Positions 10,042 through 57,061 of a stretch of DNA of 64,000 nucleotides are shown piece after piece; positions within the stretch are counted from its first letter, which is position 1, and each line of letters starts with the position of its first letter. The notes under the pieces were generated by a model that was not told the origin of the DNA, ran no database searches, and was given only the letters and a program-made list of their open reading frames with translations. The stretch comes from Paraspadella gotoi (Eukaryota; Animalia; Chaetognatha). The position numbers and the translations under genes are program-made. The stretch is taken from contig CM119263.1 of NCBI GenBank assembly GCA_051294375.1, positions 26,551,702-26,615,701 of the forward strand, in the 5' to 3' direction.

Positions 10042-10131
10042 GCAATTAGACTAAACATTTTCGATTTGCTTGACAGCACTTCCCAAGCAATAAGACTAAA
10101 CATTTGCGATTTGCTTGACAGCACTTCCCAA
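10042..10131 (+). repeat. 45-bp tandem duplication spanning the 3' splice site of the first FN3 exon
   Basis: gcaat(t/a)agactaaacattt(t/g)cgatttgcttgacagcacttcccaa occurs twice. Confidence 0.9.
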
Positions 10132-10191
10132 GCCTTCAACGCAGCTCAAGACCATCGAAGTAGAACACAATGCGGTCAAGCTGGATTGGAG
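10122..10191 (+). CDS. Lar: LAR exon, start of FN3-1
   Basis: ALPKPSTQLKTIEVEHNAVKLDW; the phases fit both neighbouring exons. Confidence 0.88.
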
Positions 10192-11305: not shown

Positions 11306-11454
11306 GTGAGGCCAAAGTGTTACAGAGCGAATGCGCTATTTTATTGTCTTTTATTGTGTTTGATGTTATTAATCTTAATGTCTAATATTATTATCAATAG
11401 TATTTTTAGTATTATAAGTATTGATATTTTAATTTATATTTCTTTTTTTTTCAG

Positions 11455-11503
11455 GGAGACGGGCCTCCATCCAAACCGGAACAAATAATTACCCAACAAG
11501 GAG
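11455..11503 (+). CDS. Lar: LAR exon, end of FN3-2
   Basis: tcag|GDGPPSKPEQIITQQG|gtgagt. A damaged duplicate lies at about 13877-13928. Confidence 0.93.
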
Positions 11504-12466
11504 GTGAGTACAAACCGGTGATTAATTTGCATGATTTTGTCCTTCACTCGTTTTTGCTCTCTCACCCGTTTTTCTGCCATACGCGCTATTTAGGTTGATT
11601 ATATTTTTATTTCTAGACATTTTATTTTTATATACCTCGCGAAAATGGTAGATTTAATCCTGGTAACACACGATTTCGTATTTCATAATTTTCTTTTTTT
11701 TTTTTCGATTTTAAAAAAATCCCAAAAGATTCAACCCAGAAACCGAATACGTATTTTCATCCATCAGGTAGTAAGTTCCGCTATCGTTCAATTTTTGACA
11801 CGCTGTCACATCCAGAGAGGGTCCCCAGATCGTTTTTGTCTACACTCCCGGTTCAGACCGCAAGATGCATGTGTGGTTCGTTTTTAAATGAAAATTTATC
11901 GATACAAGAAAAGTTCAGAATTTCCTTTGGGTTTATTGTTTATTGTTTATTGTTTATTGTTTATTGTTTATTGTTTATTGTTTATTGCGAGTGAGACAAT
12001 TGGCTGCACTAATACATTTGGATTGCAGTGAAGGCTTAATCGTCCATAAACAACGAATCAGACTTTTGTGTTTAAAAAAAAAAATGTTTTATATTTTTCA
12101 TCTTCGTTGTATTTTGCATAAAATGTTATAAAACAATTTTTTTATATCTTTTCATACATGTGCAAAGAAGAATACCAGACGAATAGCAGGCGAATACCAA
12201 GAGAAACAGAAAAACGCAAACGAAAAAAAAAGTAAAAGTAAAAGTAAAAGTAAAAGTAAAAGTAAAAAAAGGTTATATGAAGTTACCTATATTGGTACAA
12301 GTACACCTAAGCAAGTGATATCCTCAGTAATAAAAAAAAAGACAATTATGTACAATGCCGCAATCTAATAACTAAAACCTTATAAAAAAAAAAAGTAACC
12401 GCGCCTGCGGCCCAAAGCAACCAAAAGCAAAACATAAAATCAAGTCTATTTATTGACGTCATTTCT

Positions 12467-13639
12467 TCATTCTTCGGCTTCTCCTACAATCTTGACGACG
12501 GCGTCTCCAAACATCCCGGCCGACGCCTCATCCAGAAACAGCGGGGTCTCGATGAGCTCCACCTCCATCAAATAAGCGACCCCGTCTTTCTCCAGCCTCA
12601 CTCGCAACGGCTCGTCCGCTTCCTTCGCACGCCCGCGACTCCTTCCGCCATTGTCGACAACTACATCAACCCTGGCGTAAAGCAAATCTCCCTCCACCAG
12701 ATCCTACACCCCCGAAGCCGCCTCCACCATCCGCTGGTCCGGAACGCACCTGCGGAACCGCTGGCCGCCCTCGACGCGTCCGGGCCCGTGGCGGGGCGAG
12801 GTGGCCACGGCGTGACTGAAGCGACGAGAGAGGAAGACCAAGTTGATCTCCCACTCGGTGTCGATGGCATCGAGGTATTCTTGGATCATAACCCCTGAGC
12901 CGGAACCGATTTGGGAGCGGAGGCGGCGTTCGTTGGCGTCGGACATTTTGGAAACTTGGAAGCACCATTGGGATACGGCGTCTTGGGAGGAGGAAGTGGA
13001 GGAAAAGTAGAGGAATAATTTAAATTTAAAGATATCCAGTAATGATAAAAAGAAATTTAGGATTAAAAATATTAATTTAATGATTAATCTAAAAAAAAAA
13101 TAAAACCTAACAAATTAACAAAATATTTTTTAAAAAATTAATTAAATAATTAATTAAATATTTAATTCGAAACTGTGTCTACTTCAATTGACAATTAAAA
13201 CAAAAAATAAATGAAACTCACCACAACCAATGATAGGCTTAACGACGCCCGTCCGGAATCCCCTCTTCTCCAACTCTCCCTTCAAGTCGACCTCTTCGAT
13301 GTCTTCGACTCCGTCCAACCACCAAGTCTTCGTCAGCTCAACTCCCTCGGGCAAACCTTTCTCCTCGCAAATATGTCTTCTCCATATTTTTCCGGACGAC
13401 GTTGACGGAATTGAGCACGGTGACCCCCAACTTCTCCAGCCGGTCGAGCCAGCTTCGGAAGCGGGTCACGTGATGGATGTAGTTGTAGCATCCGCGGAGG
13501 ACGACGTAGTGGAAGCGACTCCAGTCGACGGACTCGTCCTCCCATGGAACCTCGACCACGAGGGAGTTTGGGACGCGAGATTCGATGCTGGGGATCAGGA
13601 GGGCGTCGCCTTTGACGAGGAAAGGGTAGAACGATGTTG
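12467..13639 (-). CDS. DcsG/RimK-like ATP-grasp ligase, copy 1 (exons about 13639-13222 and 12981-12467; 5' end uncertain)
   Basis: Motifs VPWEDESVDWSRF, VLNSVNVVRKNMEKTYL, VVKPIIGC, MIQEYLDAIDTEWEINLVF...FSHAV, YARVDVV and LMEVELIETPLFL. GT-AG intron 13221-12982; AATAAA at 12454-12449. There is one frameshift near 13360 and a TAG at 12706-12704 that reads TTG in copy 2. Confidence 0.85.
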
Positions 13640-14885
13640 CTTAATTAACTTTGTCGATATCTATGTTATTTGTTTATAATTTAATACCTTTAATGGTTTT
13701 GTTAGATCGTCTCAATTGCCGCATTTGACTTCGAGTTTCTCTCATCCGTCTTGTCTCTTTCTGTTGTCTCATTTTCCTCATTCCTCTCATTCCCCTCATT
13801 TCCCTCTTTCCCCTCATTTCCTTCATTTTCCTCATTCCTCTCATTTCCCTCATTCCCATATTTCTTTTTTTTTCAGGGGAGACGGCCCTCCATCCAAAAC
13901 CGAGAACAAATAATTACCCAACAAGTAGTGAGTACAACCGGTGATAATTTGCATGATTTTGTCCTTCACTCGTTTTATGCTCTCTCACCCGTTTTTCTGC
14001 CATACGCGCTATTTAGCGTTGATTATATTTTATTTCTAGACATTTTATTATATACTCGCGAAAAGGGTAGAATTTAATCCTGGTAACACACGATTTTCTA
14101 TTTCATATATTTCTTTTTTTTTTTTTCGATTTTAAAAAAATCCCAAAAGATTCAACCCATGAAACGAATACGTATTTTCATCCATCAGAGTAAGTTCCGC
14201 TATCGTTCAATTTTTGAACACGCTGTCACATCCAGAGAGGGTCCCCAGTCGTTTTTTGTCTACCACTCCGTTTCAGACCCGCAAGATTGCATGTGTTGGT
14301 TCGTTTTTAAATGAGAAAATTTAGTCGATACAAGAAAAGTTCAGAATTTCCTTTGGGTTTATTGTTTATTGTTTATTGTTTATTGTTTATTGTTTATGTT
14401 TATTTATGTTTAGCGAGTGAGACAATTGGCTGCACTAATACATTTGGGGATTGCAGTTGAAGACTTAATCATCCAAAAACAAACCGAATCAGGACTTTTG
14501 TGTTAAAAAAAAAAATGTTTATATTTTCATCTTCGTTGTATTTTTGCATAAAATGTTATAAAACAATTTTTTTATATCTTTTCAAACATGTGCAAAGAAG
14601 AATACAGACGAATAGCAGGCGAATACCAAGAGAAACAGAAAAAAACGCAAACGAAAAAAAGTAAAAGTAAAAGTAAAAGTAAAAGTAAAAAGTAAAAAAG
14701 TAAAAGGTTATATTGAAGTTACCTATATTGGTACAAGTACACCTAAGCAAGTGATATCCTCAGTAATAAAAAAAAAACAATTATGGTACAATGCCGCAAT
14801 CTAATACTAAAACCTTATAAAAAAAAAGTAACCGCGCCTACGGCCCAAAGCAACCAAAAGCAAAACATAAATCAAGTCATTTCTT

Positions 14886-16057
14886 TCATTCTTCGGCTTC
14901 TCCTACAATCTTGCACGACGGCGTCTCCAAACATCCCGGCCGACGCCTCATCCAGAAACAGCGGGGTCTCGATGACTCCACCTCCATCAAATAAGCGACC
15001 CCGTCTTTCTCCAGCCTCACTCGCAACGGCTCGTCCGCTTCCTTCGCACGCCCGCGACTCCTTCCGCCATTGTCGACAACTACATCAACCCTGGCGTAAA
15101 GCAAATCTCCCTCCACCAGATCCAACACCCCCGAAGCCGCCTCCACCATCCGCTGGTCCGGAACGCACCTGCGGAACGCTGGCCGCCCTCGACGCGTCCG
15201 CGGCCCGTGGCGGGGCGAGGTGGCCACGGCGTGAACTGAAGCGACGAGAGAGGAAGACCAGTTGATCTCCAACTCGGTGTCGATGGCATCGAGGTATTCT
15301 TGGATCATAACCCCTGAGCCGGAACCGATTTGGGAGCGGAGCGGCGTTCGTTGGCGTGACATTTTGGAACTTGGAAGCACATTGGGATACGGGTCTTGGG
15401 AGGAGGAAGTGGAGGAAAAGTAGAGGAATAATTTAAATTTAAAGATATCCAGTAATAGATAAAAAAGAAATTTAGGATTAAAAATATTAATTTAATGATT
15501 AATTAAAAAAAAAAATAAAACCTAACAATTAACAAAAATATTTTTTAAAAATTAATTAAATAATTAATTAAATATTTAATTCGAAACTGTGTCTACTTCA
15601 TATGACAATTAAAAAACAAAAAAATAAATGAAACTCACCACAACCAATGCATAGGCTTAACGACCCGTCCGGAATCCCCTCTTCTCCAACTCTCCGTTCA
15701 AGTCGACCTCTTCGATGTCTTCGACTCCTCCAACCACCAAGTCTTGCGTCAGCTCAACTCCTCGGGCAAACCTTCTCTCCTCGCCAAATATGTCTTCTCC
15801 ATATTTTTCCGGACGACGTTGACGGAATTGAGCACGGTGACCCCCAACTTCTCCAGCCGGTCGAGCCAGCTTCGGAAGCGGGTCACGTGATGGATGTAGT
15901 TGTAGCATCCGCGGAGGGAGACGTAGTGGAAGCGACTCCAGTCGACGGACTCGTCCTCCCATGGAACCTCGACCACGAGGGAGTTTGGGACGCGAGATTT
16001 CGATGCTGGGGATCAGGAGGGCGTCACCTTTGACGAGGAAAGGGTAGAACGATGTTG
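14886..16057 (-). CDS. DcsG/RimK-like ATP-grasp ligase, copy 2 (exons about 16057-15639 and 15394-14886; many indels)
   Basis: Near-identical to copy 1, but with different frameshifts. Confidence 0.75.
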
Positions 16058-16189
16058 CTTATTATAACTTTGTCGATATCTGTGTTATTTGTTTATAATT
16101 TAATACCTTTAATGGTTTTGTTGGATCGTCTCAATTGCCGTCATTTGACTTCGAGTTTCTCTCATCCGTCTTGTCTCTTTCTGTTGTCT

Positions 16190-16620
16190 CATTTTCCTCA
16201 TTCCTCTCATTCCCCTCATTCCCTCTTTCCCCTCATTTCCTTCATTTTCCTCATTCCTCTCATTTCCCTCATTCCCCTCATTTTGCTCATTCCTCGCATT
16301 TTCCCTCATTTCCTCATTCCTTGCATTTCCATCATTTCTCTTCATTCCCGTAATTTTCTCATTCCCTTCATTTTCCTCATTTCCCTCATTCCCCTCATTT
16401 TCCTCATTCTTCATTTCCCCTCATTCCCCTCATTCCTCCAATTTCTCATTCCCTCATTTCCTCATTTCTCTCATTCCCCTCATTTCCTCATTCCCCTCAT
16501 TTTCCTCATTCCTCATTTTTCTCATTCCTTGCATTTTCCTTCATTCCCCTCATTCCTCTCATTTCCCTCAGTCCCCTATTTCTCTCATTTCCTCATTTCT
16601 CTCATTCCCCTCATTTCTCT
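16190..16620. repeat. About 9-bp minisatellite (CCTCATTYY)n
   Basis: The order of variant units in 16278-16620 is the reverse complement of 21270-21618. Confidence 0.9.
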
Positions 16621-16961
16621 TTCCCTGATCTTCCTCCTTTTCCTCTTTCACTATCCGCTTCATCATTCTGATTCTCTTCCTTTTTCCCCTCTCCTTACAA
16701 TTCCTCCTTCTCCTTTTTCCACATCGTCTCTTCTATTCTCTTTCCTCTTCCTTCTTCACTATCCTTCTTCTATCATATCTCATTTCCTCTTTTCCTTCTT
16801 CACTATCCGTTCTCTTCTAAATCTCTTTCCTCCCTTCCTTCTTTGCACTATCCGTTTCTCTTCTATCTCCTTTTCCTCTTTTCCTTCTTCCACTATCCGT
16901 TCTCTTCTATTCTCTTCTATCTCTTCTATCTCTTCTATCTCGTATTCCTCTCCCTCTCCAT

Positions 16962-17520
16962 TTAAACGATCGTCTTCTCCGCTTGCCGCCGCGGATCGAT
17001 CTATAAACACCCCCACGTTGTGCAGCATCTGCCGATGTTCAACCGCAGCCGCACTTGTCGCACGCGATTCCGACGACATCGAATGAAGCCGTGATCGCAA
17101 GTCTCGCGGCCCACTAACCTCCCATCCTGGTGTTCGGGCCTTCACTTCGCGAATCAGCCCGCGGGCCATGCAGCGGCATCGGAGCCGAGCGGCAGCAGCA
17201 TTCCGACGTTCGCTTGGCCTGAAACAGCGGCGCCGCTGCGCCGCCGTGGCCCTACATACGACGACCTCCACGCAAGTCGATGGGCCTCTGCAGTAGTGAG
17301 GCCTGGAGACGGCCTCTCAAGAGAGTTCTCTTCCCAGGAAACTTGAGCCTCCGCTTCGGATCTCTTCCCACGATTTGGCCAGGGCGCGCGAGGCCCCCAG
17401 TTGCAGGGGGCGTCCTCTTCCCTGCGAGACATGCAGGCAACGAAGTTTCGGGATCCGGGGCGTCTGAAGTCGCGGGGGCCGCTTTTGTTTGGGGGGGTGA
17501 GTGTGGAGGAGGGAAGGGAC
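16962..17520 (-). CDS. PDGF/VEGF-like exon, frameshifted second copy
   Basis: Reverse complement of 34220-34760 with many indels. Confidence 0.55.
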
Positions 17521-17577
17521 CTGAATCTTGAAACGCGGCACTAATTTCACTAAATTCCCCTTTTTGTTCCTTATTCC

Positions 17578-17760
17578 TCAACCCCTAATACCTAATCCTA
17601 ACCTAATCCCGAACCTTATCTTTACCTTAATCCCTAAACCTTATCCCTTAAATCCTAAACCGTAATACCTAACCCTTATCCTTAATCAAATTTTAACCAA
17701 ATCCTTAACCCTTAACCCCTGACCCTAATCCCTACCCATCCCTAACTATTAACCTAATTA
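17578..17760. repeat. Degenerate telomere-like (CCCTAA/CCTAA/CCTTAA) array
   Basis: Directly visible; mirror copy at 33978-34160. Confidence 0.75.
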
Positions 17761-20349
17761 ACTCAGGACTTTTCTTCTCATTCCCGCTTTCTCCGGCCCC
17801 GCAATCTCTGCCCCGCCCTTCTTCTCACGCCGGGCGCTGCGCGTCCAACGCCGCCTCTCGCGCCAACAACTCGGATCATCGACGGTACGCACGTTGGCGG
17901 CCGGATGTGCCGTGCCGGTTACACATCCGGTGCTTCAACAGTACTCGTCGACTGGAACTTATTTCTTTTATAAAAAATATTTTAAGAGTTCCTCTTTTTA
18001 TTTTTTTTCTTTCTTTCTTGACGTCAACGTTCTACTTGGTACATTTTCTAATCTGCGCAATAGAAGATTCGATTAGCTAATTAAGATATTTAGGAAAATT
18101 AAAGCTGGGCTTCTTAATTCAATCAGATAACCAAACTAAACAAACACCATGACAATGATATTATTGAACGAAAGAAAAAAAAAAGAGTTAATCTGAAATA
18201 ATTTAATTTCCTTCCTTTTCCTTTATGTTCTTTTCTGCCGAACCGGTTTTGTGTGACGGTTTTGTGTGACGGGTCGGATCTCCGATTTCTCGCGACGAAA
18301 CAAACCGACGACGACGGACGAACGACGACAGACGCGAGCGACAGCCAAGCTTGGGTTGGTACGAAAGTAAGGAAGAAAGACGCTCGAATTCGAGAATAAA
18401 AAAAAAAGCTTTATCATCGATATCCTTTTTTTGGTTTTGTTGTTTTTTGGTTGCAGGTTTGTCGGTGGAGGCGGCCGTCCGCGTGAATTTGTAGGATCGA
18501 AAAATATCGGTGATACGAGAGACGAGGGTAAACAATCGACGTCCAGGACGATTTATTCAAAATTTTCGAAATTTATGTAGATTACTATGGTTTCTACCTA
18601 ATTTCAACCAGAAAGAGAGGGTCGCGTAAGGTTTCAGTTACAAAATATATTTTAAAAATCTTAGTTCGCAACGGCTTATCAACCCTCTTCTGTGAAAATA
18701 CGAAGATGGTAAGGAAATTTGAACTCACCATACTCTTTCTGGAGCTGTGAGCGGAGCGCGAGGGCGGACCCTCCCGGCACTCTGACTCGGCGCCACCCGG
18801 AGTGAATAACTCCGAATTAGGTTGGAGCGCCTCAAGGAGAAACGCTTCGTTGGCCGGGATGGTCGGTGGTGCTGTCGACGTGACATTGTGCTAGAGGTAG
18901 AAGAGCAAAAATTCGGAGTTTTTTTTAACATTCTTATATTCAATTTGACTTTTAATTTTTTGATTCATTAATTAAAAAAAAACCTGCCCGGTAGTCTAAA
19001 AAATAAATTATTTCTGTATTAAATAGTCCACGGTGAGACGTTTTTACAATTTTTCAGAACAAGGTTGAGTTACAAATTTTTTACTTGAGACTTTAAGAAT
19101 CCAGATGTTACTTTGCCATCCCCTCCCAGTCAGGAGTTACATAATAGTAACAAAAAAATCACACTCCATAAAACTCACTATTTCTGCAACATAAAATTTT
19201 TTTAAACGAACACTCAATTCTTAACACATTAATTTATTCAAATATTTATCTATTGTTATATTCAAACCTGTTCCAGTAGAGTTCGTAGAAGTAATTTTCT
19301 CCGGATCGTCCGTCGACGGAGATTCCACCGCAGTGAATGAAGTGGCCGAAACGGCTTGGCCTTGGAGATTCGTGGGTGGTTCGGAACTGGCAGGGGTGGT
19401 GGGTCAGGGGGTGGTTACGGTGGCAAGGAGAGGAAGGCAGGGGGGAAATCTAGCTTAAGAAAAGGAAAGAATATTTAGAAAAAAATATTTTCAATAATTG
19501 TTTTTCTTTAAAACAACGATTTTTATTTAAAGAGAAAGAAAATAAAAAAAGAGAACGCAAATGGTAAACAAAAGAAAGGAAGAAGGGAGAAAAAAGAAAA
19601 TTTGAAAAAGTTAAAAGTTATAAAAAAGCTGGCGTGCATTTTGTTTTTTCTTCTACTCTAAATTCAGTTTCGCAAAAGTCTCTCAAAGTTCCAAAAATCA
19701 AGATACCGACATTGAGACAAAGTTTTAGTTCTTTCCTGGAGATGGAGTTAGTAGAACGTTCAAGAAAGAATCCGAACAAAAATATCTTTAATTTAATTTC
19801 GTGGAGGAGATTGAAAAGTTCATGATAACTATCATGATAGATATCCGCTAACATTTCAAAGTTTGAGATGCAATGGGAAGGTGGCAACAAAGCGGAAGCA
19901 AACGGGGTTCTATGGATCTCTTTTATCCTTATTTTCAGGGAAAAATCTTTGCTCATCAGGCAAAGGGTCAGAAAAGGATCTCAGCAATGTTTCATCCAAG
20001 CACTATATAACTAAGAAATATTTTTTATTTCGTTTGGATCTGTTTATTTGTTCAGACTTCCTTTGCGTTCCGTATGGACATCTAAAGCACATTTAAATCA
20101 ACAAATATTAAAATTTTGTGATCCAAAAATCATAACAGGTCACGAAGATTTGAATTTTTAATGAATCATTAGCACCAAAAGTATCGGGATTCAGGTTTCA
20201 AGTAAAAATCCGGCTCTAATTACTTGCGTAGGTTGTAGGCTAATTAAAACACCAAAGTAGCTCCAAAAGCAATTTTACGACTTTTTAAGATATTTTAGTT
20301 CTTGCTCTAGGAATGTTTCTCCCGACTAATTTTTACCCGAAAAAAACTT

Positions 20350-20900
20350 ACCCATCACCTTTTGAAACGAATATTCTCTTCCATTTCTAGAATACCGTAG
20401 AACCCCATCTAAACCAGTGCTTCAGGTTTTCGAGCTTCCCCTTCGGATCCGTCTAGAATTCATTCTTATACTTTTATACTTCAGTCTCAATCGAAATGCA
20501 ACTTCAGAATTGAATTGGTCGTGGGTCGTCACGCCCTTGACGAAGCCCTCGACGAGAGTTCGAAAAGCGCCTTCGAGTTTCAAGGCCGCTCATTCCCTCG
20601 AAGAGCTCCTTTGGAGGATGCGGAGGAAGATTACGTCGACGTCGAGGAGGATGCTGAGTGCGGCGATGGTGAAAACCAGGTTGGTTCTGGAGATTGATTA
20701 AATGATTCGTGTGAACTTATAGGCTTGTCTTAATGCAAATATTTTTTTGTTTTTTTATGAATGAGATAAAACCTTATTTATGCTTACCACACATTTGCTA
20801 AACAGATTTTCATCGCGATTGTGACGAGCCTCGGGAACGAGAAGCGAACGAGGAGAAGATGCGACCGTCTCTCGAATGAAGAGAATGCGCGGAATGATTC
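20350..20900. other. Exon-like GC-rich blocks of an unidentified gene, strand unresolved; second copy at 21660-22220
   Basis: The - strand has strong gtaag donors (near 20350 and 20797) and a ctccag acceptor. The + strand gives SQSKCNFRIELVVGRHALDEALDE...DGENQ spliced to IFIAIVTSLGNEKR..., running into the NE-repeat satellite. Confidence 0.35.
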
Positions 20901-21618
20901 CAATGAGAGGAATGAGATCAATGAGGGGGAGGAGGGAAATGAGGAAATGAGGGGAATGAGGAAAATGAGGGGAATGAGAAAATGAGGGAATGAGGGAAGT
21001 GAGGGAAGAGATGGAATAGGAAAATGAGGGTATGAGGGAAATGCGAGGAATGAGGGGAAGAAGATGAGGAATGGAAAAAATGAGGGAAGAGGGAATGCGA
21101 GGAATGAGGAAAATGAGGGAATGAGGAAAATGAGGGCTGAGGAATGAGCGGGAATGAGGGAAATGAGGAAAATGAGAAAAATGAGGGAATTGCAAGGAAT
21201 GAGGAAAATGAAGGAAATGACGAGGAATGATTGGAAATGAGGGAAATGAAAGGAATGAGGAAAATGAGGGAATACGAGAAATGAGGGGAATGAGAGAATG
21301 AGGAAAATTGAGAGAAATGAGCGGACTGAGGGAAATGAGAGGAATGAGGGGAATGAAGGAAATGCAAGGAATGAGAAAAATGAGGGAATGAGGAAAATGA
21401 GGGAATGAGGGAAATGAGGGAATGAGAGAAATGAGGAAATGAGGGGAATGAGAGAATTGAGAGGAATGAGGGAATGAGGGAAATGCAAAGAATGAGGAAA
21501 ATGAGGGAATGAGGAAATGAGGAAAATGAAAGGGAATGAGGAAATTACGGGAATGAAGAAATGAGGGAAATGCAAGGAATGAGGAAAATGAGGGAAATGC
21601 GAGGAATGAGCAAATGGG
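20900..21618. repeat. About 9-bp minisatellite (AATGAGGRR)n; a more degenerate copy lies at 22215-22568
   Basis: Directly visible. Confidence 0.92.
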
Positions 21619-23399
21619 NNNNNNNNNNNNNNNNNNNNNNNNNTTATCGAAAAAACTTACCCATCACCTTTTGAACGAATATTCTCTTCCATTTTTAGCG
21701 AGAATACCGTAGTACCCCATCTAAACCAGTGCTTCAGGTTTTCGAGCTTCCCCCCTTCGGATCCGTCTAGAATTCATTCTTATACTTTTATACTTCAGTC
21801 TCAAATCGAAATGCAACTTCAGAATTGAATTGGTCGTGGGTCGTCACGCCCTTGACGAAGCCCTCGACGAGAGTTCGAAAAGCGCCTTCGAGCTTCAAGG
21901 CCGCTCACCCTCGAAGAGCTCCTATTGGAGGATGCGGAGGAAGATTACGTCGACGTCGAGGAGGATGCTGAGTGCGGCGATGGTGAAAACCAGGTTGGTT
22001 CGTGAGATTGATTAAATGATTCGTGTGAACTTATAGGCTTGTCTTAATGCAAATATTTTTTTGTTTTTTTATGAATGAGATAAAACCTTATTTATGCTTA
22101 CACACATTTGCTAAACAGATTTTCATCGCGATTGTGACGAGCCTCGGGAACGAAAAGCGAACGAGGAGAAGATGCGACCGTCTCTCGAATGAAGAGAATG
22201 CGCGGAATGATTCCAATGAGGAAGGAATGGAGAATCAATGAGGGGAAATGAGGGGAAATGAGGATAATGAGAGTAAATAATGGGGAATGCAGGAATAATG
22301 AGAGGGAAATGGGATGGAATAGGAAAATGAGGGGATGAAAATGCTGAGGAATGAGGGGAATGAGGGAGAAAATGAGCAGGAAATGAAGGGATAATAATGA
22401 GGGAATGAGGGAAATGCGTAGCGAATGAGGGGAATGAGGAAAGCAAAATGAATGAGAAAAATGAAGAATGAGGGAAATGCGAGATAATGAGGAAAAAGAG
22501 GATAATGAGGGAATGAGAAAATGAGGGGTAATGAGGGGAAATGCGAAAAGGAATGAGAAAGGAAATGCTAGGGTGTGTCAAAATCAAAAGATTGCATTTC
22601 TCGAATCACTATTCCTAATCTAACCATCGATGGAAATAAGGCAAGGTTCAATAAATAAATACGAGTGTAATATTCACGAAATCGCCATTTCAAATTGGTC
22701 TACACACTCACTTAGACAGCATACCCTGCATTAAAAAGAAACTCAGATTATGCACACCTTTCACATCAATAAGTCATGGTCTAAAGTATGAGAAAAGAAT
22801 AATTTGAGTCCACCTTAATTTATTAGTTAAAAAATGTTGCAAAGTTAACTAATATAAAATTTCAAGTCCTACCCATCGCGTGCGTCCACAACAGCATCCA
22901 CAACCTGCTGAGAGATAATACGTTAACAAGCCCGCATTGACATACTAGCGATAGTACATTATACTATGGAAGGATAATTGGAGGTCACTCTACTTTAAAT
23001 TTCTCCCAAAACATTATCAAACATAGCATTAAGGCCTTCTTCTGTTTGACACCAATTTTTACTTCATTTTTTTTTTAAAATATGTGTAGTCACATCCTGG
23101 AGGAATAAATCCTGTACAGATTCTTTTAAAAAATAACTATGACAAATAGTTATCATAATTTTTGCTTATGGTAATCATCAATTAAAGGTAGATGGTATGC
23201 AGTGTATGTTAAATTTCATTTTGATTGACCATGTACTTTCCAAGATAGCCCGTTTTAAAGCATTTTCAAAAAAAAAAATTAAACACTGACGGTAAAAATA
23301 TTAATATTATTTCTTCCAAAGGGCTTCATTAGTTGAGAAAGACTAACTTATATTTTAACCATAAATTTTCATGAACTTCAATATCAACATGTTGTAAGA

Positions 23400-31270: not shown

Positions 31271-32555
31271 AATAAAGATGATATTGACTCAGGGCTTTTT
31301 TAATGGTTAATGCCTATCTTATAGTGTCCATGCCTTTGTTGTACTAAAAAAAGAACACCAAGTAAATAAGTCGTGATTCCTTTTTATTTGTTTCCCATCT
31401 GGGCTGACTTATTTTGATAACTTCCATAACTTCCTGGAAAAACCTAACAAAGGAATTTTTATTGGAAGCAGGGCTTGTTATACTTTATTATTTGTGTAAT
31501 GAACATTTGTTAATTTCGTTGATTAATTAATTAATTAATTATTATTCTTTATTGTTGCAATTTTGCATATGATATTACGTAAGGCTAATTAGCTATGAAA
31601 AATTAGTCGGGAGAAACATTCCTAGAGGCAAGAACTAAAATATCTTAAAAAGTCGTAAAATTGCTTTTGGAGCTACTTTGGATGGTTTTAATTAGCCTAC
31701 AAACCTACGCAAGTAATTAGAGCCGGATTTTTACTTGAAACCTGAATCCCGATACTTTTGGTGCTAATGATTCATTAAAAAATTCAAACTTCGTGACTCT
31801 GTTATGATTTTTGGATCACAAAATTTTAATATTTGTTGATTTAAATGTGCTTTAGATGTCCATACGGAACGCAAAGGAAGTTCTGAACAAATAAACAGAT
31901 CCAAACGAAATAAAAATATTTCTTAGTTATCATAGTGCTTGGATGAAACATTGCTGAGATCCTTTTCTGACCCTTTGCCTGATGAGCAAGATTTTTCCCC
32001 TTGAAAAATAAGGATAAAAGAGATCCATAGAACCCCGTTTGCTTCCGCTTGTTGCCACCTTCCCATTGCATCTCAAACTTTGAAATGTTAGCGGATATCT
32101 ATCATGATAGTTATCATGAACTTTTCAATCTCCTCCACGAAATTAAAATTAAAGATATTTTTGTTCGGAATTCTTTCTTGAACGTTCTACTAACTCCATC
32201 TCCAGGAAAGAACTAAAACTTTGTCTCAATGTCGGTATCTTGATTTTTGGAACTTTGAGAGACTTTTGCGAAACTGAATTTAGAGTAGAATGAAAAAACT
32301 AGCACGCCAGCTTTTTTATAACTTTTAACTTTTTTCAAATTTTCTTTTTCTCCCCTTCTTTCCTTTCTTTTGTTTACCATTTGCTTTCTCTTTTTTTATT
32401 TTCTTTCTTCTTTAAATAAAAATCGTTGTTAAAGAAAAACAATTATTGAAAATATTTTTTTTCTAAATATTCTTTCCTTTTCTTAAGCTAGATTTTCCCC
32501 CCCTGCCTTCCTCTCCTTGCCACCGTAACCACCCCTGACCCACCACCCCTGCCAG

Positions 32556-32679
32556 TTCCGAACCACCCCACGAATCTCCAAGGCCAAGCCGTTTCGGCCA
32601 CCTCCATTCAGCTGCGGTGGAATCGTCCGTCGACGGACGATCCGGAGAAAATTACTTCTTACGAACTCTACTGGAACAG
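32556..32679 (+). CDS. Lar: LAR exon, start of FN3-3
   Basis: ccag|VPNHPTNLQGQAVSATSIQLRWNRPSTDDPEKITSYELYWN; continues the phase-1 junction from 11503. Confidence 0.93.
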
Positions 32680-33054
32680 GTTTGAATATAACAATAGATA
32701 AATATTTGAATAAATTAATGTGTTAAAGAATTGAGTGTTCGTTTAAAAAAATTTTTGTGCAGAAATAGTGAGTTTTATGGAGTGTGATTTTTTGTTACTA
32801 TTATGTAACTCCTGACTGGGAGGGGATGGCAAAGTAACATCTGGATTCTTAAAGTCTCAAGTAAAAAATTTGTAACTCAACCTTGTTCTGAAAAATTGTA
32901 AAAACGTCTCACCGTGGACTATTTAATACAGAAATAATTTATTTTTAGACTACCGGGCAGGTTTATTTTTAATTAATGAATCAAAAAATTAAATAGTCAA
33001 ATTGAATATAAGAATGTTAAAAAAAACTCCGAATTTTTGCTCTTCTACCTCTAG

Positions 33055-33218
33055 CACAATGTCACGTCGACAGCACCACCGCACCATCCCGGCCAACGAA
33101 GCGTTTCTCCTTGAGGCGCTCCAACCTAATTCGGAGTATCACATCCGGGTGGCGGCGCGGTCAGAGACCGGGGAGGGTCCGCCCTCGGCTCCGCTCACAG
33201 TCAGAACAGAGCAGTATG
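33055..33218 (+). CDS. Lar: LAR exon, end of FN3-3
   Basis: STMSRRQHHRTIPANEAFLLEALQPNSEYHIRVAARSETGEGPPSAPLTVRTEQY|gtgagt. Confidence 0.93.
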
Positions 33219-33977
33219 GTGAGTTCAAATTTCCTTACCATCTTCTATTTTCACAGGAAGAGGTGAAAGCGTTGCGAACTAAGATTTTTAAAATATATTT
33301 NNNNNNNNNNNNNNNNNNNNNNNNNNNNNNNNNNNNNNNNNNNNNNNNNNNNNNNNNNNNNNNNNNNNNNNNNNNNNNNNNNNNNNNNNNNNNNNNNNNN
33401 NNNNNNNNNNNNNNNNNNNNNNNNNNNNNNNNNNNNNNNNNNNNNNNNNNNNNNNNNNNNNNNNNNNNNNNNNNNNNNNNNNNNNNNNNNNNNNNNNNNN
33501 NNNNNNNNNNNNNNNNNNNNNNNNNNNNNNNNNNNNNNNNNNNNNNNNNNNNNNNNNNNNNNNNNNNNNNNNNNNNNNNNNNNNNNNCAAATAATCATTG
33601 TCGGTGTTTTGTAATTGGTTATCTGATAGATTAAGAAGCAGTTTAATCCTAAATATCTTAATTAAGCTAATCGGAATCTTCTATTTGCGACGATTAAAAA
33701 TTACAAGTAGAACGTTGACGTCAAAGAAAGAAAAAAAAAATAAAAGAGGAACTCTTAAAATATTTTTTATAAAAGAAATAAGTTCCAGTCGACGAGTATG
33801 TTGAAGCACCGGATGTGTAACCGGCACGGCACTCGGCCGCCACACGTGCGCTACGTCGATGATCCCGAGTTGTTGGCGCGAGAGGCGGCGTTGGACGCGC
33901 AGCGCCCAGCGTGAGAAGAAGGGCGGGGCAGAGATTGCGGGGCCGAGAAAGCGGGAATGAGAAGAAAGGTCCTGAGT

Positions 33978-34160
33978 TAATTAGGTTAATAGGTTAGGGA
34001 AATGGGTTAGGGATTAGGGTCAGGGGTTAAGGGTTAAGGATTTGGTTAAAATTTGATTAAGGATAAGGGTTAGGTATTACGGTTTTGGATTAAGGGATAA
34101 GGTTAGGGATTAAGGTAAAGATAAGGGTTCGGGATTAGGTTAGGATTAGGTATTAGGGTT
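33978..34160. repeat. Degenerate TTAGGG/TTAGG-like array in the presumed intron before the VEGF-like exon
   Basis: ggttagggattagggtcaggggttaagggttaagg... Confidence 0.75.
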
Positions 34161-34219
34161 GAGGAATAAGAACAGAAAAGGGGAACTTTAGGAAATTAGT
34201 GCCGCGTTTCAAGATTCAG

Positions 34220-34760
34220 GTCCCCTTCCCTCACTCCACACTCACCCCCCCCCAACAAAAGCGCCCCCCGCGACTTCGACGCCCCGGATCCCGACTTCGT
34301 TCCCTGCATGTCTCGCAGGGAAGAGGACGCCCCCTGCAACTGGGGCCTCGGCGCCGCCCTGGCCAAACAGTGGGAAGAGATCCGCACGGAGGCCAAGTTC
34401 CTGGGAGAGAACTCTCTTGAGAGCCTCTACCAGGCCTCCTACTGCAGGCCCATCGACTGCGTGGAGGTCGTCGAGGGCCACGGCGGCGGCAGCGGCGGCC
34501 GCTGTCTCAAGCCCAGCGAACGTCGGATGCTGCGCCGCTCGGCTCCGCTGCCCTGCATGCCCGACGGGCTGATTCGCGAAGTGAGGCCCGACACCCAGAT
34601 GGAGGTCGTGGCGGCGACGAGATTCGATCACCGGCTTCATTCGATGTCGTCGGATCCGTGCGACAAGTGCGGCTGCGAGTTGAACATCGGCCAGATGCTG
34701 CACAACGTGGGGGTGTTTAAAGATCGATCCGCGGCGGCAGCGGAGAAGACGATCGTTTAA
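34220..34760 (+). CDS. Terminal exon of a divergent PDGF/VEGF-family-like protein; a probable upstream exon lies at about 33790-33970
   Basis: Open for about 180 codons, with GC3-rich codons. LYQASYCRPI-x18-KPS...MLR...DGL...QMEV...MS..DKCGC parallels VEGF-A VYQRSYCHPI-x18-KPS...LMR...EGL...TMQI...MS..NKCEC. Confidence 0.6.
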
Positions 34761-36393
34761 ATGGAGAGGGAGAGGAAAGAGATAGAAGAGATAGAAGAGA
34801 TAGAAGAGATAGAAGAGAACGGATAGTGAAGAAGGAAAAGAGGTCCGCACATAATGACAAGGATCTTTTCTTTTGACTCCTTTCCANNNNNNNNNNNNNN
34901 NNNNNNNNNNNNNNNNNNNNNNNNNNNNNNNNNNNNNNNNNNNNNNNNNNNNNNNNNNNNNNNNNNNNNNNNNNNNNNNNNNNNNNNNNNNNNNNNNNNN
35001 NNNNNNNNNNNNNNNNNNNNNNNNNNNNNNNNNNNNNNNNNNNNNNNNNNNNNNNNNNNNNNNNNNNNNNNNNNNNNNNNNNNNNNNNNNNNNNNNNNNN
35101 NNNNNNNNNNNNNNNNNNNNNNNNNNNNNNNNNNNNNNNNNNNNNNNNNNNNNNNNNNNNNNNNNNNNNNNNNNNNNNNNNNNNNNNNNNNNNNNNNNNN
35201 NNNNNNNNNNNNNNNNNNNNNNNNNNNNNNNNNNNNNNNNNNNNNNNNNNNNNNNNNNNNNNNNNNNNNNNNNNNNNNNNNNNNNNNNNNNNNNNNNNNN
35301 NNNNNNNNNNNNNNNNNNNNNNNNNNNNNNNNNNNNNNNNNNNNNNNNNNNNNNNNNNNNNNNNNNNNNNNNNNNNNNNNNNNNNNNNNNNNNNNNNNNN
35401 NNNNNNNNNNNNNNNNNNNNNNNNNNNNNNNNNNNNNNNNNNNNNNNNNNNNNNNNNNNNNNNNNNNNNNNNNNNNNNNNNNNNNNNNNNNNNNNNNNNN
35501 NNNNNNNNNNNNNNNNNNNNNNNNNNNNNNNNNNNNNNNNNNNNNNNNNNNNNNNNNNNNNNNNNNNNNNNNNNNNNNNNNNNNNNNNNNNNNNNNNNNN
35601 NNNNNNNNNNNNNNNNNNNNNNNNNNNNNNNNNNNNNNNNNNNNNNNNNNNNNNNNNNNNNNNNNNNNNNNNNNNNNNNNNNNNNNNNNNNNNNNNNNNN
35701 NNNNNNNNNNNNNNNNNNNNNNNNNNNNNNNNNNNNNNNNNNNNNNNNNNNNNNNNNNNNNNNNNNNNNNNNNNNNNNNNNNNNNNNNNNNNNTTGCGGA
35801 ATGTAAATATACGTGTTGTGATGTATCCAAATTTTTAAAAAAATGTGAACTGTTAAAATTTAGACGTCTTAGAAATGATATATTAAATTGGTGACGAATT
35901 GATTAATTTTATTTTTATTCTAAATCGGCTTCGATTGTCCGAAAGCATTTTTCGTTTTTCCCGGCGCTGTCGGGTGGAACATAAAGATTCCGGCGGCGAG
36001 AAATTGTACTTCGTCAATCCGGATTTCGATAATGAGAAGCGGGAATCGGAGAAATCCCAACAGCGATTCTGCGACGCAGGAACTGTCGAGCGAGACTGGA
36101 GAAGCGAGCTTTGTTATGGGGCGTGATATCCGTCTGGGGTGAAAGTGGTTTTGAATGTTGCGAGGCAACACTAGTTGAATTTAATTATCTTGATATTATC
36201 AGTATGATCCCACAGTCAAAAAGAAGAATTTATTAACAGTAGCAGAAAGTTATCAAAAAACCAGTTTCAGAATGAATGGTGCTAAACTTACGCTTACACT
36301 CACACCACCACAAAAAAGCAACAGTTTGACGTCTTATCTCATACATATTTGTATTTTTATTTCTTTTTATATCATAACGCAATCTTGAGTCAT

Positions 36394-43140: not shown

Positions 43141-43149
43141 AGAAAGAGA

Positions 43150-54386
<11,237 letters not shown>

Positions 54387-56046
54387 AATTTAGTTATGTT
54401 TTCTAAGTATTTTCTAAAAAAATTCTACCTAACTGTTTTCTGAAAATAAAAAACAATTAATATCGTATTCAATGATATAATAATGAACTGAAACATTCGT
54501 ATGTTCGAAAGAGAAGGAAAAAAAAACTGATATATAAAGAAACATTTCGAAATGCTAAATCAAACAAACAAAAATAGAGAAACTGGTGAAATAGGACTAG
54601 CACGGGGTATATCCAGTCGGATCTGAGCGACGACGTAACGGAGAAAAATTAGAAAATTAGGTTACGATTGCGCGAAGAGTCTGTTTGAAAAATCGATTTA
54701 CTACCATATTGGAAAATAAATCTTATTTATGTAGCACGTTTATTATAATTTTTTTGAAATACGGAATCGTTTTCCGCAACGCTTTGCAGCTAAAATAAAG
54801 GACAATCAAAATTCAATAGTGAATAAAGAGAACAAAAAATGTAAGTTTTTAAGCCGCAGGAAAACGTTTGCTCGAATCGTCTCACATCCGCGTTGAGGCA
54901 AATTGTTTTTGTGATTCATGCATCTTTATTAAACTTGTTTTTAGTCAGTCTGTCCTGTCGCTTTGTAAATACGTAGGAAAATAAAATAGGTCTTGTTTAT
55001 TACTTTGCTTTCACTAGTCTTCTAAGTTTTTTGCCTCACGCCGTCCGATTTTGGACTGTCCAGAGCAAAGTTCTGTGAGAACAAAATTCGAAAGATTAAA
55101 AAATATAATGATTCGGCTGAAATCCATCTCTATTTCTTTTTTACATACAATTTTACAAAACGGGTAATGAGATGTAACAACTGTGGGATAGATTGACCAG
55201 CTCAACGAAAATGAACAAAATATTAAATGGCAAAAAAAAACAAAAAAAACGAGTCTAAAAAAACAAACCTAAAATTGTATCTACGATGAGAAAGGTAAAC
55301 ATCAAATATCAACGAGCATGAACTTGGACAATGGACAGCGAGAGAAAAAAAAGAGAGAACAAATGAAAAAATTGAAAGGATATAAGTGGGAAAAAGAAAG
55401 TGGTGATGTCGCCCTGGGTATTTTCTACAATTAACGGGATATTGAGCAACTTATTTCTTTGATAATTCGATTGTAAAGGAATATATTGGCAATATGCTGG
55501 CGCGTATTCGACCACGTGTCAGTCCAAACTTTAAGCTTGTCAAGAAAAAAAAATGATAATAATAATGATAAAAAAACTTGCGTGAGCCAATTGATCGAAG
55601 TGACAAATCGTTACAGTGATCTTTTGTTTTCGATCGATACAAGAATCGATATAAGAATGTAAAATTGATTGACATTTACATACAAATATCTTAAAAGTAT
55701 TTTTTCCATTTACGTTACGTCTGGAGTTAACATTGTAATGCATTAAAAAGTAATAAAATTAACAATTTTTGACTTTTTTTCTTTTTCACGATATAGCAAG
55801 GTAGTAATGTTTCACGAAAGTTTTTTTTTTTCAATTCCGGTAAAAATCCTCGAGTAAAAAGGCACCCATATGACGAGAAAATCAGTGACTAAGTTTGACG
55901 TAGCGCCATCAGCGTTCTACGCAGCCGCGCCGTCTGCATTCTCCGCCGCGGCACCGCCAGCGTTTTTCTGCCGCAGCATCGCCAAGCGTTTTCTGCCGCC
56001 ACAGCGCCGCACCCATTTCAGACGCTTACTTTACCTCTTTCTTCCT

Positions 56047-57018
56047 TCACATATAAGTCTTCCCCACGCAGACTTTGTTGTACAAGTTGACGCCGGTCTG
56101 TTCCATGACAGATGGGTAACGAAAGACGGGCGATGGCGGCGTCGTCGGATGCTGCGGCGTCGTCGGCGCCAGCGACGTCGCCGTTAAGTCGTACGAAGGA
56201 TAAATTAGGCCGGCGCCGGCGTGCTGACCCGGGCCGCCGAGAATTTGCTGCGTCGGAGGCGTGACGGCGAGGGAGGCGGCGCCCGGCCCCCAAGACGGCG
56301 TGGAGGGCGAAGTGAGCGACGGAGAGTAGAGCATGGGCGAAGCGGACGGGATGGAGAGGTAAGGGGAGGAAGGCAAGGCGATGGAGAGCGCCGCCACGTT
56401 GGCCATTTTGCGGAGGGCGCTGTGATCGCGATATGTCCCGTTGATGATCGCCAGTTCCATAAGCTGACGCTTCTTGAGGTCGTCCTCTCCATCGGGCGAA
56501 GGCTGCAGCAACTTGCGCACTTCGTCGACGGCGCGAGCGAGACGCTTCTCCGCGCGGCCTCGACTGTCCTCCACCGTGATGAGGACGTGAAGGTCTTCGT
56601 TGAGGTGTTCCCAATTTGGTTTCCCTCGGTTCTGATCTTCCTTCTTCTTGTCCCTCATGGAGCCTTTCCCACGCACCATGATCTTGCAGCCCGTGTCCTG
56701 TTCGAGCTGTTTGGCCGTCATCCCGCGAGGACCAAGGATGCGGCCAACGAAGTTAAAGTCTGGGTGTTCCTTGACGGGCACGAAGACCTTCTCGGAGAGG
56801 GTGATCTTGGGCCCGGCCGCCTCGGGCAGGTCCAGGGGAGACTTTTCCTTGTCCGTGTAAAACATTTGTCCACGGACCCGGGAGATTTCGTTGTCAAGGA
56901 GACGCTCGAGATGGAGAAAGACGTTTGGGAAGGCGGAAATCTGCTTCTTGTCCTTCAAGAGTTGCGTCAAATACTCGGCGGAGTTGGTGTCCACCTGGGG
57001 AGGGGTCATGCTCGTCAT
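56047..57018 (-). CDS. qki: Quaking/How STAR-family RNA-binding protein, single-exon CDS
   Basis: QUA1 ([12 protein letters not shown]...[16 protein letters not shown]), KH ([40 protein letters not shown]), QUA2 ([22 protein letters not shown]) and a P/Y-rich tail. Confidence 0.97.
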
Positions 57019-57028
57019 CGTCGTCGTC

Positions 57029-57061
57029 GTTAGTGGATGAAAGGGGAAGGGAGGGTTAGTA
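57029..57061 (-). promoter_or_regulatory. Tandem ACUAAC motifs (QKI response element / branch-point consensus) just 5' of the qki start
   Basis: TACTAAC at 57061-57055 and ACTAAC at 57034-57029 on the coding strand. A 5'-UTR acceptor (ttttccag) lies at about 57499. Confidence 0.5.

What the first reader, a model, noticed from the sequence alone, without database searches (positions are those of the whole stretch)
12467..13639. Bacterial-type DcsG-like ATP-grasp ligase with a spliceosomal intron, nested antisense in a LAR intron: candidate domesticated horizontal transfer
Seen: a two-exon ORF with the full ATP-grasp motif order, a GT-AG intron, AATAAA, and a position between genuine animal LAR exons, so simple contamination is unlikely. 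Known (from memory): WED..VDWSRF, VVKP..GC, Q.Y...D..E..L.F....SHA, RVD and E.E..E match the Streptomyces D-cycloserine synthetase DcsG/RimK-like family rather than animal glutathione synthetase, CARNS1 or RIMKLA/B. Inference: a horizontally acquired amide-bond-forming enzyme that may make an undescribed small metabolite in an animal.
Basis: partly seen in the sequence, partly recalled or inferred. Interest (0 to 1): 0.85.

Follow-up and report, generated by a model that had tools for sequence, protein, structure and literature searches.

The report
Bacterial-type ligase gene inside animal intron
An invertebrate carries a gene for a bacterial-type ATP-grasp enzyme, with its own intron and host-like codon use, on the opposite strand right after an exon of its LAR receptor gene; distant relatives also occur in an annelid and an amoeba, so it is likely an old, patchily kept animal enzyme, possibly of bacterial origin, predicted to join an acid to an amine on an unknown small molecule.

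Summary
The observation mostly holds. Two minus-strand exons (12467-13639) split by a 240-nt GT-AG intron encode a full-length DcsG-like ATP-grasp protein, next to a genuine LAR exon. Splice signals, GC pattern and codon use are host-like, and the ATP/Mg core residues are kept, so contamination is unlikely. Three corrections. (1) It scores far below the DcsG cut-off: it belongs to the wide, uncharacterised DcsG_N family, not to D-cycloserine synthetases. (2) The second copy duplicates a LAR exon too and differs mainly by single-base indels, so it is probably assembly noise. The region is locally scrambled, the start codon is unresolved, and copy 1 has a frameshift and a TAG that copy 2 lacks. 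(3) The family is not unique to this animal: Capitella teleta and a dictyostelid amoeba have members, and Capitella scores nearly as well as the best bacterium (129 vs 140 bits). The tree neither places the gene nor rejects common descent with Capitella. Verdict: a real, long-resident animal gene of a bacterial-type family, likely a stand-alone acid-amine ligase or cyclase. Horizontal origin is plausible but not shown; expression and intactness are untested.

The parts
11455..11503 (+). Host LAR-type receptor phosphatase exon (end of an FN3 domain), upstream border of the host intron
   Evidence: AG/GT borders; joins in frame to 32556-32679; neighbouring exons hit PTPRD/PTPRS/PTPRF structures and Pfam fn3/Ig
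12449..12454 (-). AATAAA 13 nt after the stop; weak poly(A) signal candidate
   Evidence: Absent in copy 2; 121 such sites on this strand, 18% chance per 100 nt
12467..12981 (-). Ligase exon 2: ATP-grasp C-terminal part with a ~21-residue insertion between ARVD and MEVE; TGA stop at 12469-12467
   Evidence: NF058666 E 2e-10; 6JIL; AlphaFold pLDDT 84, top Foldseek hit DcsG
12704..12706 (-). In-frame TAG in copy 1; copy 2 reads TTG (Leu) at a position that is hydrophobic in homologues
12982..13221 (-). 240-nt phase-1 GT-AG intron, about 20% GC, host-type donor and pyrimidine tract
   Evidence: homologues are contiguous here
13222..13639 (-). Ligase exon 1 (DcsG_N-like domain and lid up to VVKPIIGC); frameshift near 13360 in copy 1; 5' border unresolved
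   Evidence: NF058666 E 8e-14; 6JIL E 5e-5; copy 2 keeps the frame at that site
13640..13724 (-). Unresolved 5' end: in-frame ATG at 13724 and a candidate 48-nt GT-AG intron (13687-13640) that would skip two in-frame stops; poor pyrimidine tract
   Evidence: inferred, not tested
13768..13857 (-). 3' end of a 9-nt GGAAATGAG array directly upstream of the ligase
13858..16276 (.). Tandem second copy (damaged LAR exon 13877-13925, ligase 14886-16058); probably a noisy long-read duplicate of the same locus
   Evidence: 94% identity; 81 indels vs 26 substitutions
16188..16650 (-). 9-nt array; the same array as 21242-21615 (+), marking one end of an apparent assembly inversion
   Evidence: Alignment score 573 vs at most 349 in 200 unit-shuffled controls; rare words shared in order
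19268..19386 (-). Inverted noisy copy of the next LAR exon
20485..21618 (+). Two exon-like stretches (20485-20679; from 20806, running into the array) that lie upstream of the ligase on its strand once the inversion is undone; separate gene or fused 5' part, unknown
   Evidence: no Pfam or NCBIfam hit
32556..32679 (+). Next LAR FN3 exon, downstream border of the host intron
   Evidence: In-frame join with 11455-11503; Pfam fn3

Best explanation
This is a two-exon (or longer) DcsG-like ATP-grasp gene with host-type splice signals and codon use, on the strand opposite a LAR exon and likely nested in that LAR intron; it is likely an old resident animal gene, possibly of bacterial origin, predicted to work as a stand-alone ATP-dependent acid-amine ligase or cyclase on an unknown small molecule. 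Shown: fold and family, intron, host-like composition, conserved core. Inferred from ATP-grasp chemistry (residue roles recalled; DcsG numbers read off): the lysines of MEKTY and VVKP (DcsG K92, K137) and the QE motif bind ATP, the glutamates of MEVE (E269, E271) hold Mg2+, the arginine of ARVD (R254) helps form an acyl-phosphate on the substrate carboxylate, and an amine then attacks it to give an amide or lactam. The product is probably not D-cycloserine, because putative pocket positions differ from both DcsG and the family consensus. The second copy and probably the breaks in copy 1 are assembly noise or allelic differences.
For: Family: a profile from 168 homologues scores the X-bridged copy-1 protein at 183 bits over positions 20-287 of 291. 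Constraint: 27 of 37 columns that are at least 90% conserved are kept, against 27 of 157 variable columns, on an end branch of 2.09 changes per site. Host residence: exon GC 0.48-0.80 vs intron 0.07-0.35 in 60-nt bins; GC3 0.75 vs LAR 0.74 and Quaking 0.76; the host codon table fits as well as the best of 48 bacterial tables and better than the other 47; donor G|GTGAGT equals three LAR donors. No close relative: best of 1,417 hits among 1.84 billion representatives is 70.8 bits, 31-52% identity in the 150 listed. Breaks: the frameshift and the TAG are absent from copy 2. Stand-alone habit: no shared biosynthetic cluster among 107 flanking ORFs (of 156 picked) from 39 bacterial loci.
Against: No read-level evidence for splicing, expression, LAR linkage or intactness was obtained. 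Three runs that may be the source hold 0.99 of 150 sampled words of copy 1; if both the TAG and the frameshift were absent from those reads, at most 2 missing words has P about 0.02 under even sampling, so at least one break may be real in that specimen (recurrent long-read errors could also explain it; a fourth run of the same sample holds 0.90). Both copies show TAA just before the first conserved motif, and the start needs an atypical 48-nt intron or another unseen exon. Ten conserved columns are changed, including W, G, K, Q and the P of E-P, which could mean relaxed selection. The right-hand LAR flank rests on undoing an inversion in a noisy assembly. Bacterial origin is not shown: Capitella scores 129 bits vs 140 for the best bacterium.
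Confidence: 0.55

Rival explanations
1. Origin rival A: an ancient eukaryotic or early-animal gene inherited vertically and lost in most lineages, orthologous to the Capitella gene, with no transfer into this lineage.
For: Homologues in Capitella teleta (956-kb scaffold) and Tieghemostelium lacteum. Capitella forms a supported clade with two unnamed proteins (98/92), one of which shares KPxIGCD with the window protein. Holding the four together costs 1.08 log-likelihood units, AU p 0.47 (group named after seeing a tree). Patchy retention in amoebae and some bilaterians is known for GH13_1 amylases (PMC7003070, abstract).
Against: 0% of 200 bootstrap trees join the window protein directly with Capitella. 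A profile of the Capitella clade scores it 172.6, and 15 of 60 random triplets score higher. Only 2 of 30 hits looked up were named eukaryotes, and the amoebal protein sits elsewhere in the tree.
Confidence: 0.35
2. Origin rival B: an independent horizontal transfer from a bacterium into this animal's lineage, later given an intron and adapted to the host.
For: The family is common in bacteria (24 of 151 and 36 of 151 genomes in two phyla); all Atlas clusters shown are 94-100% bacterial; the top full-length matches are bacterial or unnamed; the amoebal, annelid and window proteins fall in three places in the best tree.
Against: No donor group: the gene is in no supported clade. The margin over the animal homologue is about 4.5 orders of E-value, short of the ten-order criterion used in PMC4729200 (passage read). 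Monophyly with Capitella is not rejected.
Confidence: 0.4
3. Status rival: a recently dead pseudogene or a null allele; the breaks in copy 1 are real and the locus makes no enzyme.
For: Word share 0.99 in three possible-source runs; TAA shared by both copies at the 5' end and no clear start; 10 of 37 conserved columns changed; neighbouring single-copy LAR and Quaking exons read without breaks.
Against: Copy 2 has Leu at the TAG and keeps the frame at the frameshift; exons remain GC-rich against AT-rich flanks; all inferred ATP/Mg residues are kept.
Confidence: 0.3
4. Artefact rival: DNA of a symbiont or food organism (bacterial or protist) joined to the LAR locus by mis-assembly.
For: The window has several noisy duplicates, an inversion and nine N gaps.
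Against: Spliceosomal intron with host-type signals, host codon use, a gap-free link to the LAR exon in both copies, one organism label in all listed runs, and no bacterial match above about 52% identity.
Confidence: 0.07

Closest known systems
DcsG, D-cycloserine synthetase of Streptomyces (PDB 6JIL; NCBIfam NF058666)
   Same: Best sequence and fold match among characterised proteins; same domain order; core residues and the GC after VVKP are shared.
   Different: Scores 51 and 40 bits for the two halves against a cut-off of 360; RGCYNY vs RSPWTW and GCD vs GCY; ~21-residue insertion; intron; no dcs genes seen in the window. DcsG closes the D-cycloserine ring (PMC9298251, passage read).
Uncharacterised DcsG_N (PF27100) + GSH-S_ATP bacterial family
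   Same: Full-length colinear match, 30-35% identity to most top hits, 27 of 37 conserved columns.
   Different: Long branch, spliceosomal intron, changed WDY, GE and EP motifs, altered FRVQ loop.
Capitella teleta CAPTEDRAFT_216496 and Tieghemostelium lacteum DLAC_09174
   Same: Eukaryotic members of the same family; Capitella is 30% identical over 290 columns.
   Different: Not demonstrably orthologous; their intron positions could not be examined.
Animal ATP-grasp proteins (synapsin, RIMKLA/B, glutathione synthetase, ITPK1, CARNS1)
   Same: Same superfamily fold; synapsin is the next Foldseek hit after DcsG.
   Different: No Pfam hit to these families at E up to 1; 14-18% identity in the fold matches to synapsins.
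Intron-bearing microbe-like genes in invertebrate genomes
   Same: Meets the criterion of a defined locus among real animal genes (PMC4729200, passage read).
   Different: Fails that paper's ten-order E-value margin; shared exon structure with relatives not testable.

Membership tests
DcsG equivalog (NF058666) | Score at or above the curated cut-off of 360 bits | tested here: not met
   51.4 and 40.4 bits for the two halves; close bacterial homologues also fail (151-218 bits)
DcsG equivalog (NF058666) | Lies with D-cycloserine pathway genes | tested here: inconclusive
   None recognised among GC-rich segments of the window; no whole genome was available
DcsG equivalog (NF058666) | Cyclises O-ureido-D-serine | not testable with these tools
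   Needs an assay
DcsG_N / GSH-S_ATP ATP-grasp family (PF27100) | Full-length colinear match to the family profile | tested here: met
   183 bits, positions 20-287 of 291, own profile of 168 homologues; below the lowest training member (227)
DcsG_N / GSH-S_ATP ATP-grasp family (PF27100) | Passes the PF27100 model itself | not testable with these tools
   No PF27100 row appeared in the Pfam scans, even for bacterial homologues; the family is seen only as a precomputed label
ATP-grasp superfamily | ATP-binding lysines, Q/E motif, R-x-D, E-x-E metal ligands | tested here: met
   All present; roles recalled
ATP-grasp superfamily | ATP-grasp C-domain fold | tested here: met
   Exon-2 model pLDDT 84; Foldseek DcsG E 6e-5, TM 0.49, then synapsin, Ddl, RimK; N-terminal half not folded
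Animal synapsin / RIMKL / GSS / ITPK1 / CARNS1 | Hit to their family models or solved structures by sequence | tested here: not met
   No such Pfam or PDB sequence hit
Domesticated horizontal transfer | Locus among host genes, host splice signals and codon use | tested here: met
   assembly evidence only
Domesticated horizontal transfer | Much closer to bacteria than to any other animal protein | tested here: not met
   140 vs 129 bits; E 1e-41 vs 3e-37
Domesticated horizontal transfer | Nested in a bacterial clade with support | tested here: inconclusive
   Unplaced long branch; AU p 0.47
Domesticated horizontal transfer | Expressed, spliced, intact | not testable with these tools
   No read-level data obtained

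The most novel reading that the evidence does not exclude
Distant invertebrates (this animal and Capitella) keep active members of an unrecognised eukaryotic branch of DcsG-like ATP-grasp enzymes, taken up early from bacteria, that make an undescribed cyclic or amide-linked small metabolite; here the enzyme may also carry a new acidic-repeat N-terminal extension.
Probability: 0.25. Interest if true: 0.75.

Novelty: new member of a known kind. Interest (0 to 1): 0.47.

Why it matters
Only one member of this large family (DcsG) has a reaction known to me, and my paper searches found no report of animal members. An intron-bearing animal copy plus the Capitella protein gives two eukaryotic targets for finding the family's common substrate and a test case for transfer versus patchy loss. 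It also shows that a single bacteria-looking gene in a noisy assembly cannot be called lineage-specific transfer without profile-level searches.

Tried and rejected
Word-index protein searches with each exon against longer proteins: no hits among 3,618 and 79 candidates; weak evidence, and exon-2 relatives of 94-300 residues were not searched with the exon alone. The family-profile search listed 120 of 5,443 hits, bacterial where named; eukaryotes could be crowded out. No RNA holder listed (one run is only guessed to be RNA): no evidence either way. No reads were laid on the locus, so breaks, splicing and the tandem junction stay open. No whole genome is held, so paralogues and pathway genes were not searched. 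A first codon test used wrong LAR frames and was redone; first read-through and splice enumerations had frame slips and were redone. Rejected: a true tandem duplication (it damages a LAR exon and is indel-dominated); AATAAA as evidence; D-cycloserine synthesis; a 27-nt micro-intron alone (leaves a TAA in frame). The FastTree grouping of the gene with P0227 and P0228 (0.915) did not survive the mixture model (42 of 279 rows chosen by me, bootstrap not fully settled). Paper searches: searches found no paper on animal DcsG-like genes; (transfer in one invertebrate lineage) was seen as a listing only. Seen: passages of PMC9298251, PMC9765450, PMC8142540, PMC4729200; abstract and opening of PMC7003070; the DcsG structure paper (doi 10.1111/febs.15163) is not held, so residue roles are recalled. 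No supplements were read; transfer-candidate lists in genome-paper supplements may already name this gene or the Capitella one. Earlier-finding look-ups by sequence and place returned nothing.

Full report
What is there. The window is animal DNA: Ig and FN3 exons match LAR-type receptor phosphatases (top 14 rows PTPRD/PTPRS/CRYPalpha for the Ig exon; PTPRD/F/S for an FN3 exon, behind two titin entries that score through repeats), and a Quaking gene lies near 56.4-57.0 kb (E 5e-84). On the minus strand, 12467-13639 holds two GC-rich blocks separated by an AT-rich stretch. The blocks hit NCBIfam DcsG at E 8e-14 and 2e-10 and PDB 6JIL. No Pfam family of animal ATP-grasp proteins matched any of 6 pieces. 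Read through with X at its breaks, copy 1 scores 183 bits over positions 20-287 of a 291-position profile built from 168 homologues. An AlphaFold model of exon 2 (pLDDT 84) finds DcsG first, then synapsin, Ddl and RimK.

The intron. Of 30 GT/AG pairs examined, 7 keep an open frame. The three best use acceptor 12981 with similar scores (67.2, 66.6, 62.9 bits), and only donor 13221 has the GTGAGT seen at three LAR donors. The 240-nt intron falls where six plasmid-record homologues are contiguous. The codon formed across the junction gives KPIIGCD, and an unnamed homologue has KPSIGCD. This is sequence evidence; no transcript was seen.

Host residence. GC3 is 0.75 against 0.74 for LAR and 0.76 for Quaking; the host codon table fits the gene as well as the best of 48 bacterial tables and better than the other 47. 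No bacterial protein is close: the 150 best of 1,417 hits in 1.84 billion representatives are 31-52% identical over the exon-1 piece. Contamination is therefore unlikely.

The assembly is noisy here. 11436-13857 is repeated at 13858-16276 (94%). The repeat includes the LAR exon, damaged in copy 2, and differs by 81 indels and 26 substitutions, as do three other duplicate pairs; I read it as a long-read artefact or a second haplotype with noise. The 9-nt array upstream of the ligase is the same array as 21242-21615 on the other strand (score 573 vs at most 349 in 200 shuffles). Undoing that inversion puts the next LAR exon in order, and that exon joins 11455-11503 in frame. Nesting in this LAR intron is thus likely, but the right side is reconstructed. 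The same step brings two unidentified exons and about 0.8 kb of array upstream of the ligase on its strand, so a longer or fused gene is possible.

Is it intact? Copy 1 has a frameshift near 13360 and a TAG at 12706; copy 2 keeps the frame there and has TTG. Against a simple error reading, three possible-source runs hold 0.99 of 150 sampled words, which has P about 0.02 if both breaks were absent from those reads and sampling is even; recurrent long-read errors or a null allele would both fit, and a fourth run of that sample holds 0.90. Both copies have TAA just before the first motif. An ATG at 13724 with a 48-nt intron would give a complete frame in copy 1, but its acceptor is atypical. Long-term constraint is clear: 27 of 37 conserved columns against 27 of 157 variable ones. 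I put present function at about 0.6.

Origin. The family is widespread in bacteria (24 of 151 and 36 of 151 genomes; none over the DcsG cut-off). Of 30 hits looked up out of 150 (chosen for rank, odd length or tree position), 7 were named bacteria, 21 had no taxon and 2 were eukaryotes: Capitella teleta and Tieghemostelium lacteum. Full-length, the best bacterial match scores 140 bits and Capitella 129. In a 42-row mixture-model tree the gene has a long end branch (2.09) and no supported placement, while Capitella groups with two unnamed proteins at 98/92. Forcing the gene into that group is not rejected (AU p 0.47), yet a profile of the group fits it no better than random triplets (15 of 60 score higher). 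Separate transfer (about 0.4) and old shared inheritance (about 0.35, whether or not first taken from bacteria) cannot be told apart. A similar ambiguity is described for GH13_1 amylases (PMC7003070, abstract).

How it likely works. The residues that ATP-grasp enzymes use for ATP and Mg2+ (roles recalled) are all present, so acyl-phosphate formation followed by amine attack is the expected chemistry; DcsG uses it to close the D-cycloserine ring (PMC9298251, passage). Putative pocket motifs differ from DcsG and from the family consensus, and bacterial homologues show mixed neighbours: among 107 of 156 flanking ORFs from 39 loci, DEAD/DbpA helicases at 5 loci, DUF1499 at 4, Cys/Met PLP enzymes at 2, and no shared biosynthetic cluster. 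That fits a stand-alone enzyme on a common amino-acid-like metabolite, which would also let it work alone in an animal. The substrate is unknown; this step is inference.

Verdict. A real animal gene of a bacterial-type, almost uncharacterised ATP-grasp family; works like DcsG, is not DcsG; transfer plausible but not shown; intactness and expression untested. New member of a known kind, interest 0.47.

Noticed in passing
window 34200-34760 (+), noisy inverted copy 16961-17550 (-): A 186-codon cysteine-containing open frame with host-like GC3 (0.82), after a LAR exon on the LAR strand; no Pfam, NCBIfam or PDB hit. Possibly a second nested orphan gene.
   Followed up: partly
window 20485-21618 (+), second copy 21644-22560: Two exon-like stretches followed by about 0.8 kb of 9-nt repeats readable as an Asn/Glu-rich tract; no family hit.
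   Followed up: partly
window 56400-57030 (-): Quaking STAR domain encoded without an intron over 210 codons; possibly a retrocopy or intron loss.
   Followed up: no
window 18451-18530 (+): Short GC-rich stretch with a strong acceptor and a GT donor, antisense to LAR in the inverted segment; may be a further upstream exon.
   Followed up: no
window 43149-48355, 45088-54387, 16875-20334 vs 31598-34843, about 10045-10135: Several near-duplicates at 86-96% identity with indel-dominated differences, and a short tandem repeat over a LAR acceptor; signs of gap filling with noisy reads.
   Followed up: partly
P0227 and P0228: Two unnamed proteins that group with the Capitella homologue (98/92) and lack the FRVQ loop; possibly further eukaryotic members.
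   Followed up: partly
L027:2288-3334 and L031:3-1040: Cys/Met-family PLP enzyme genes directly beside DcsG-like genes.
   Followed up: no
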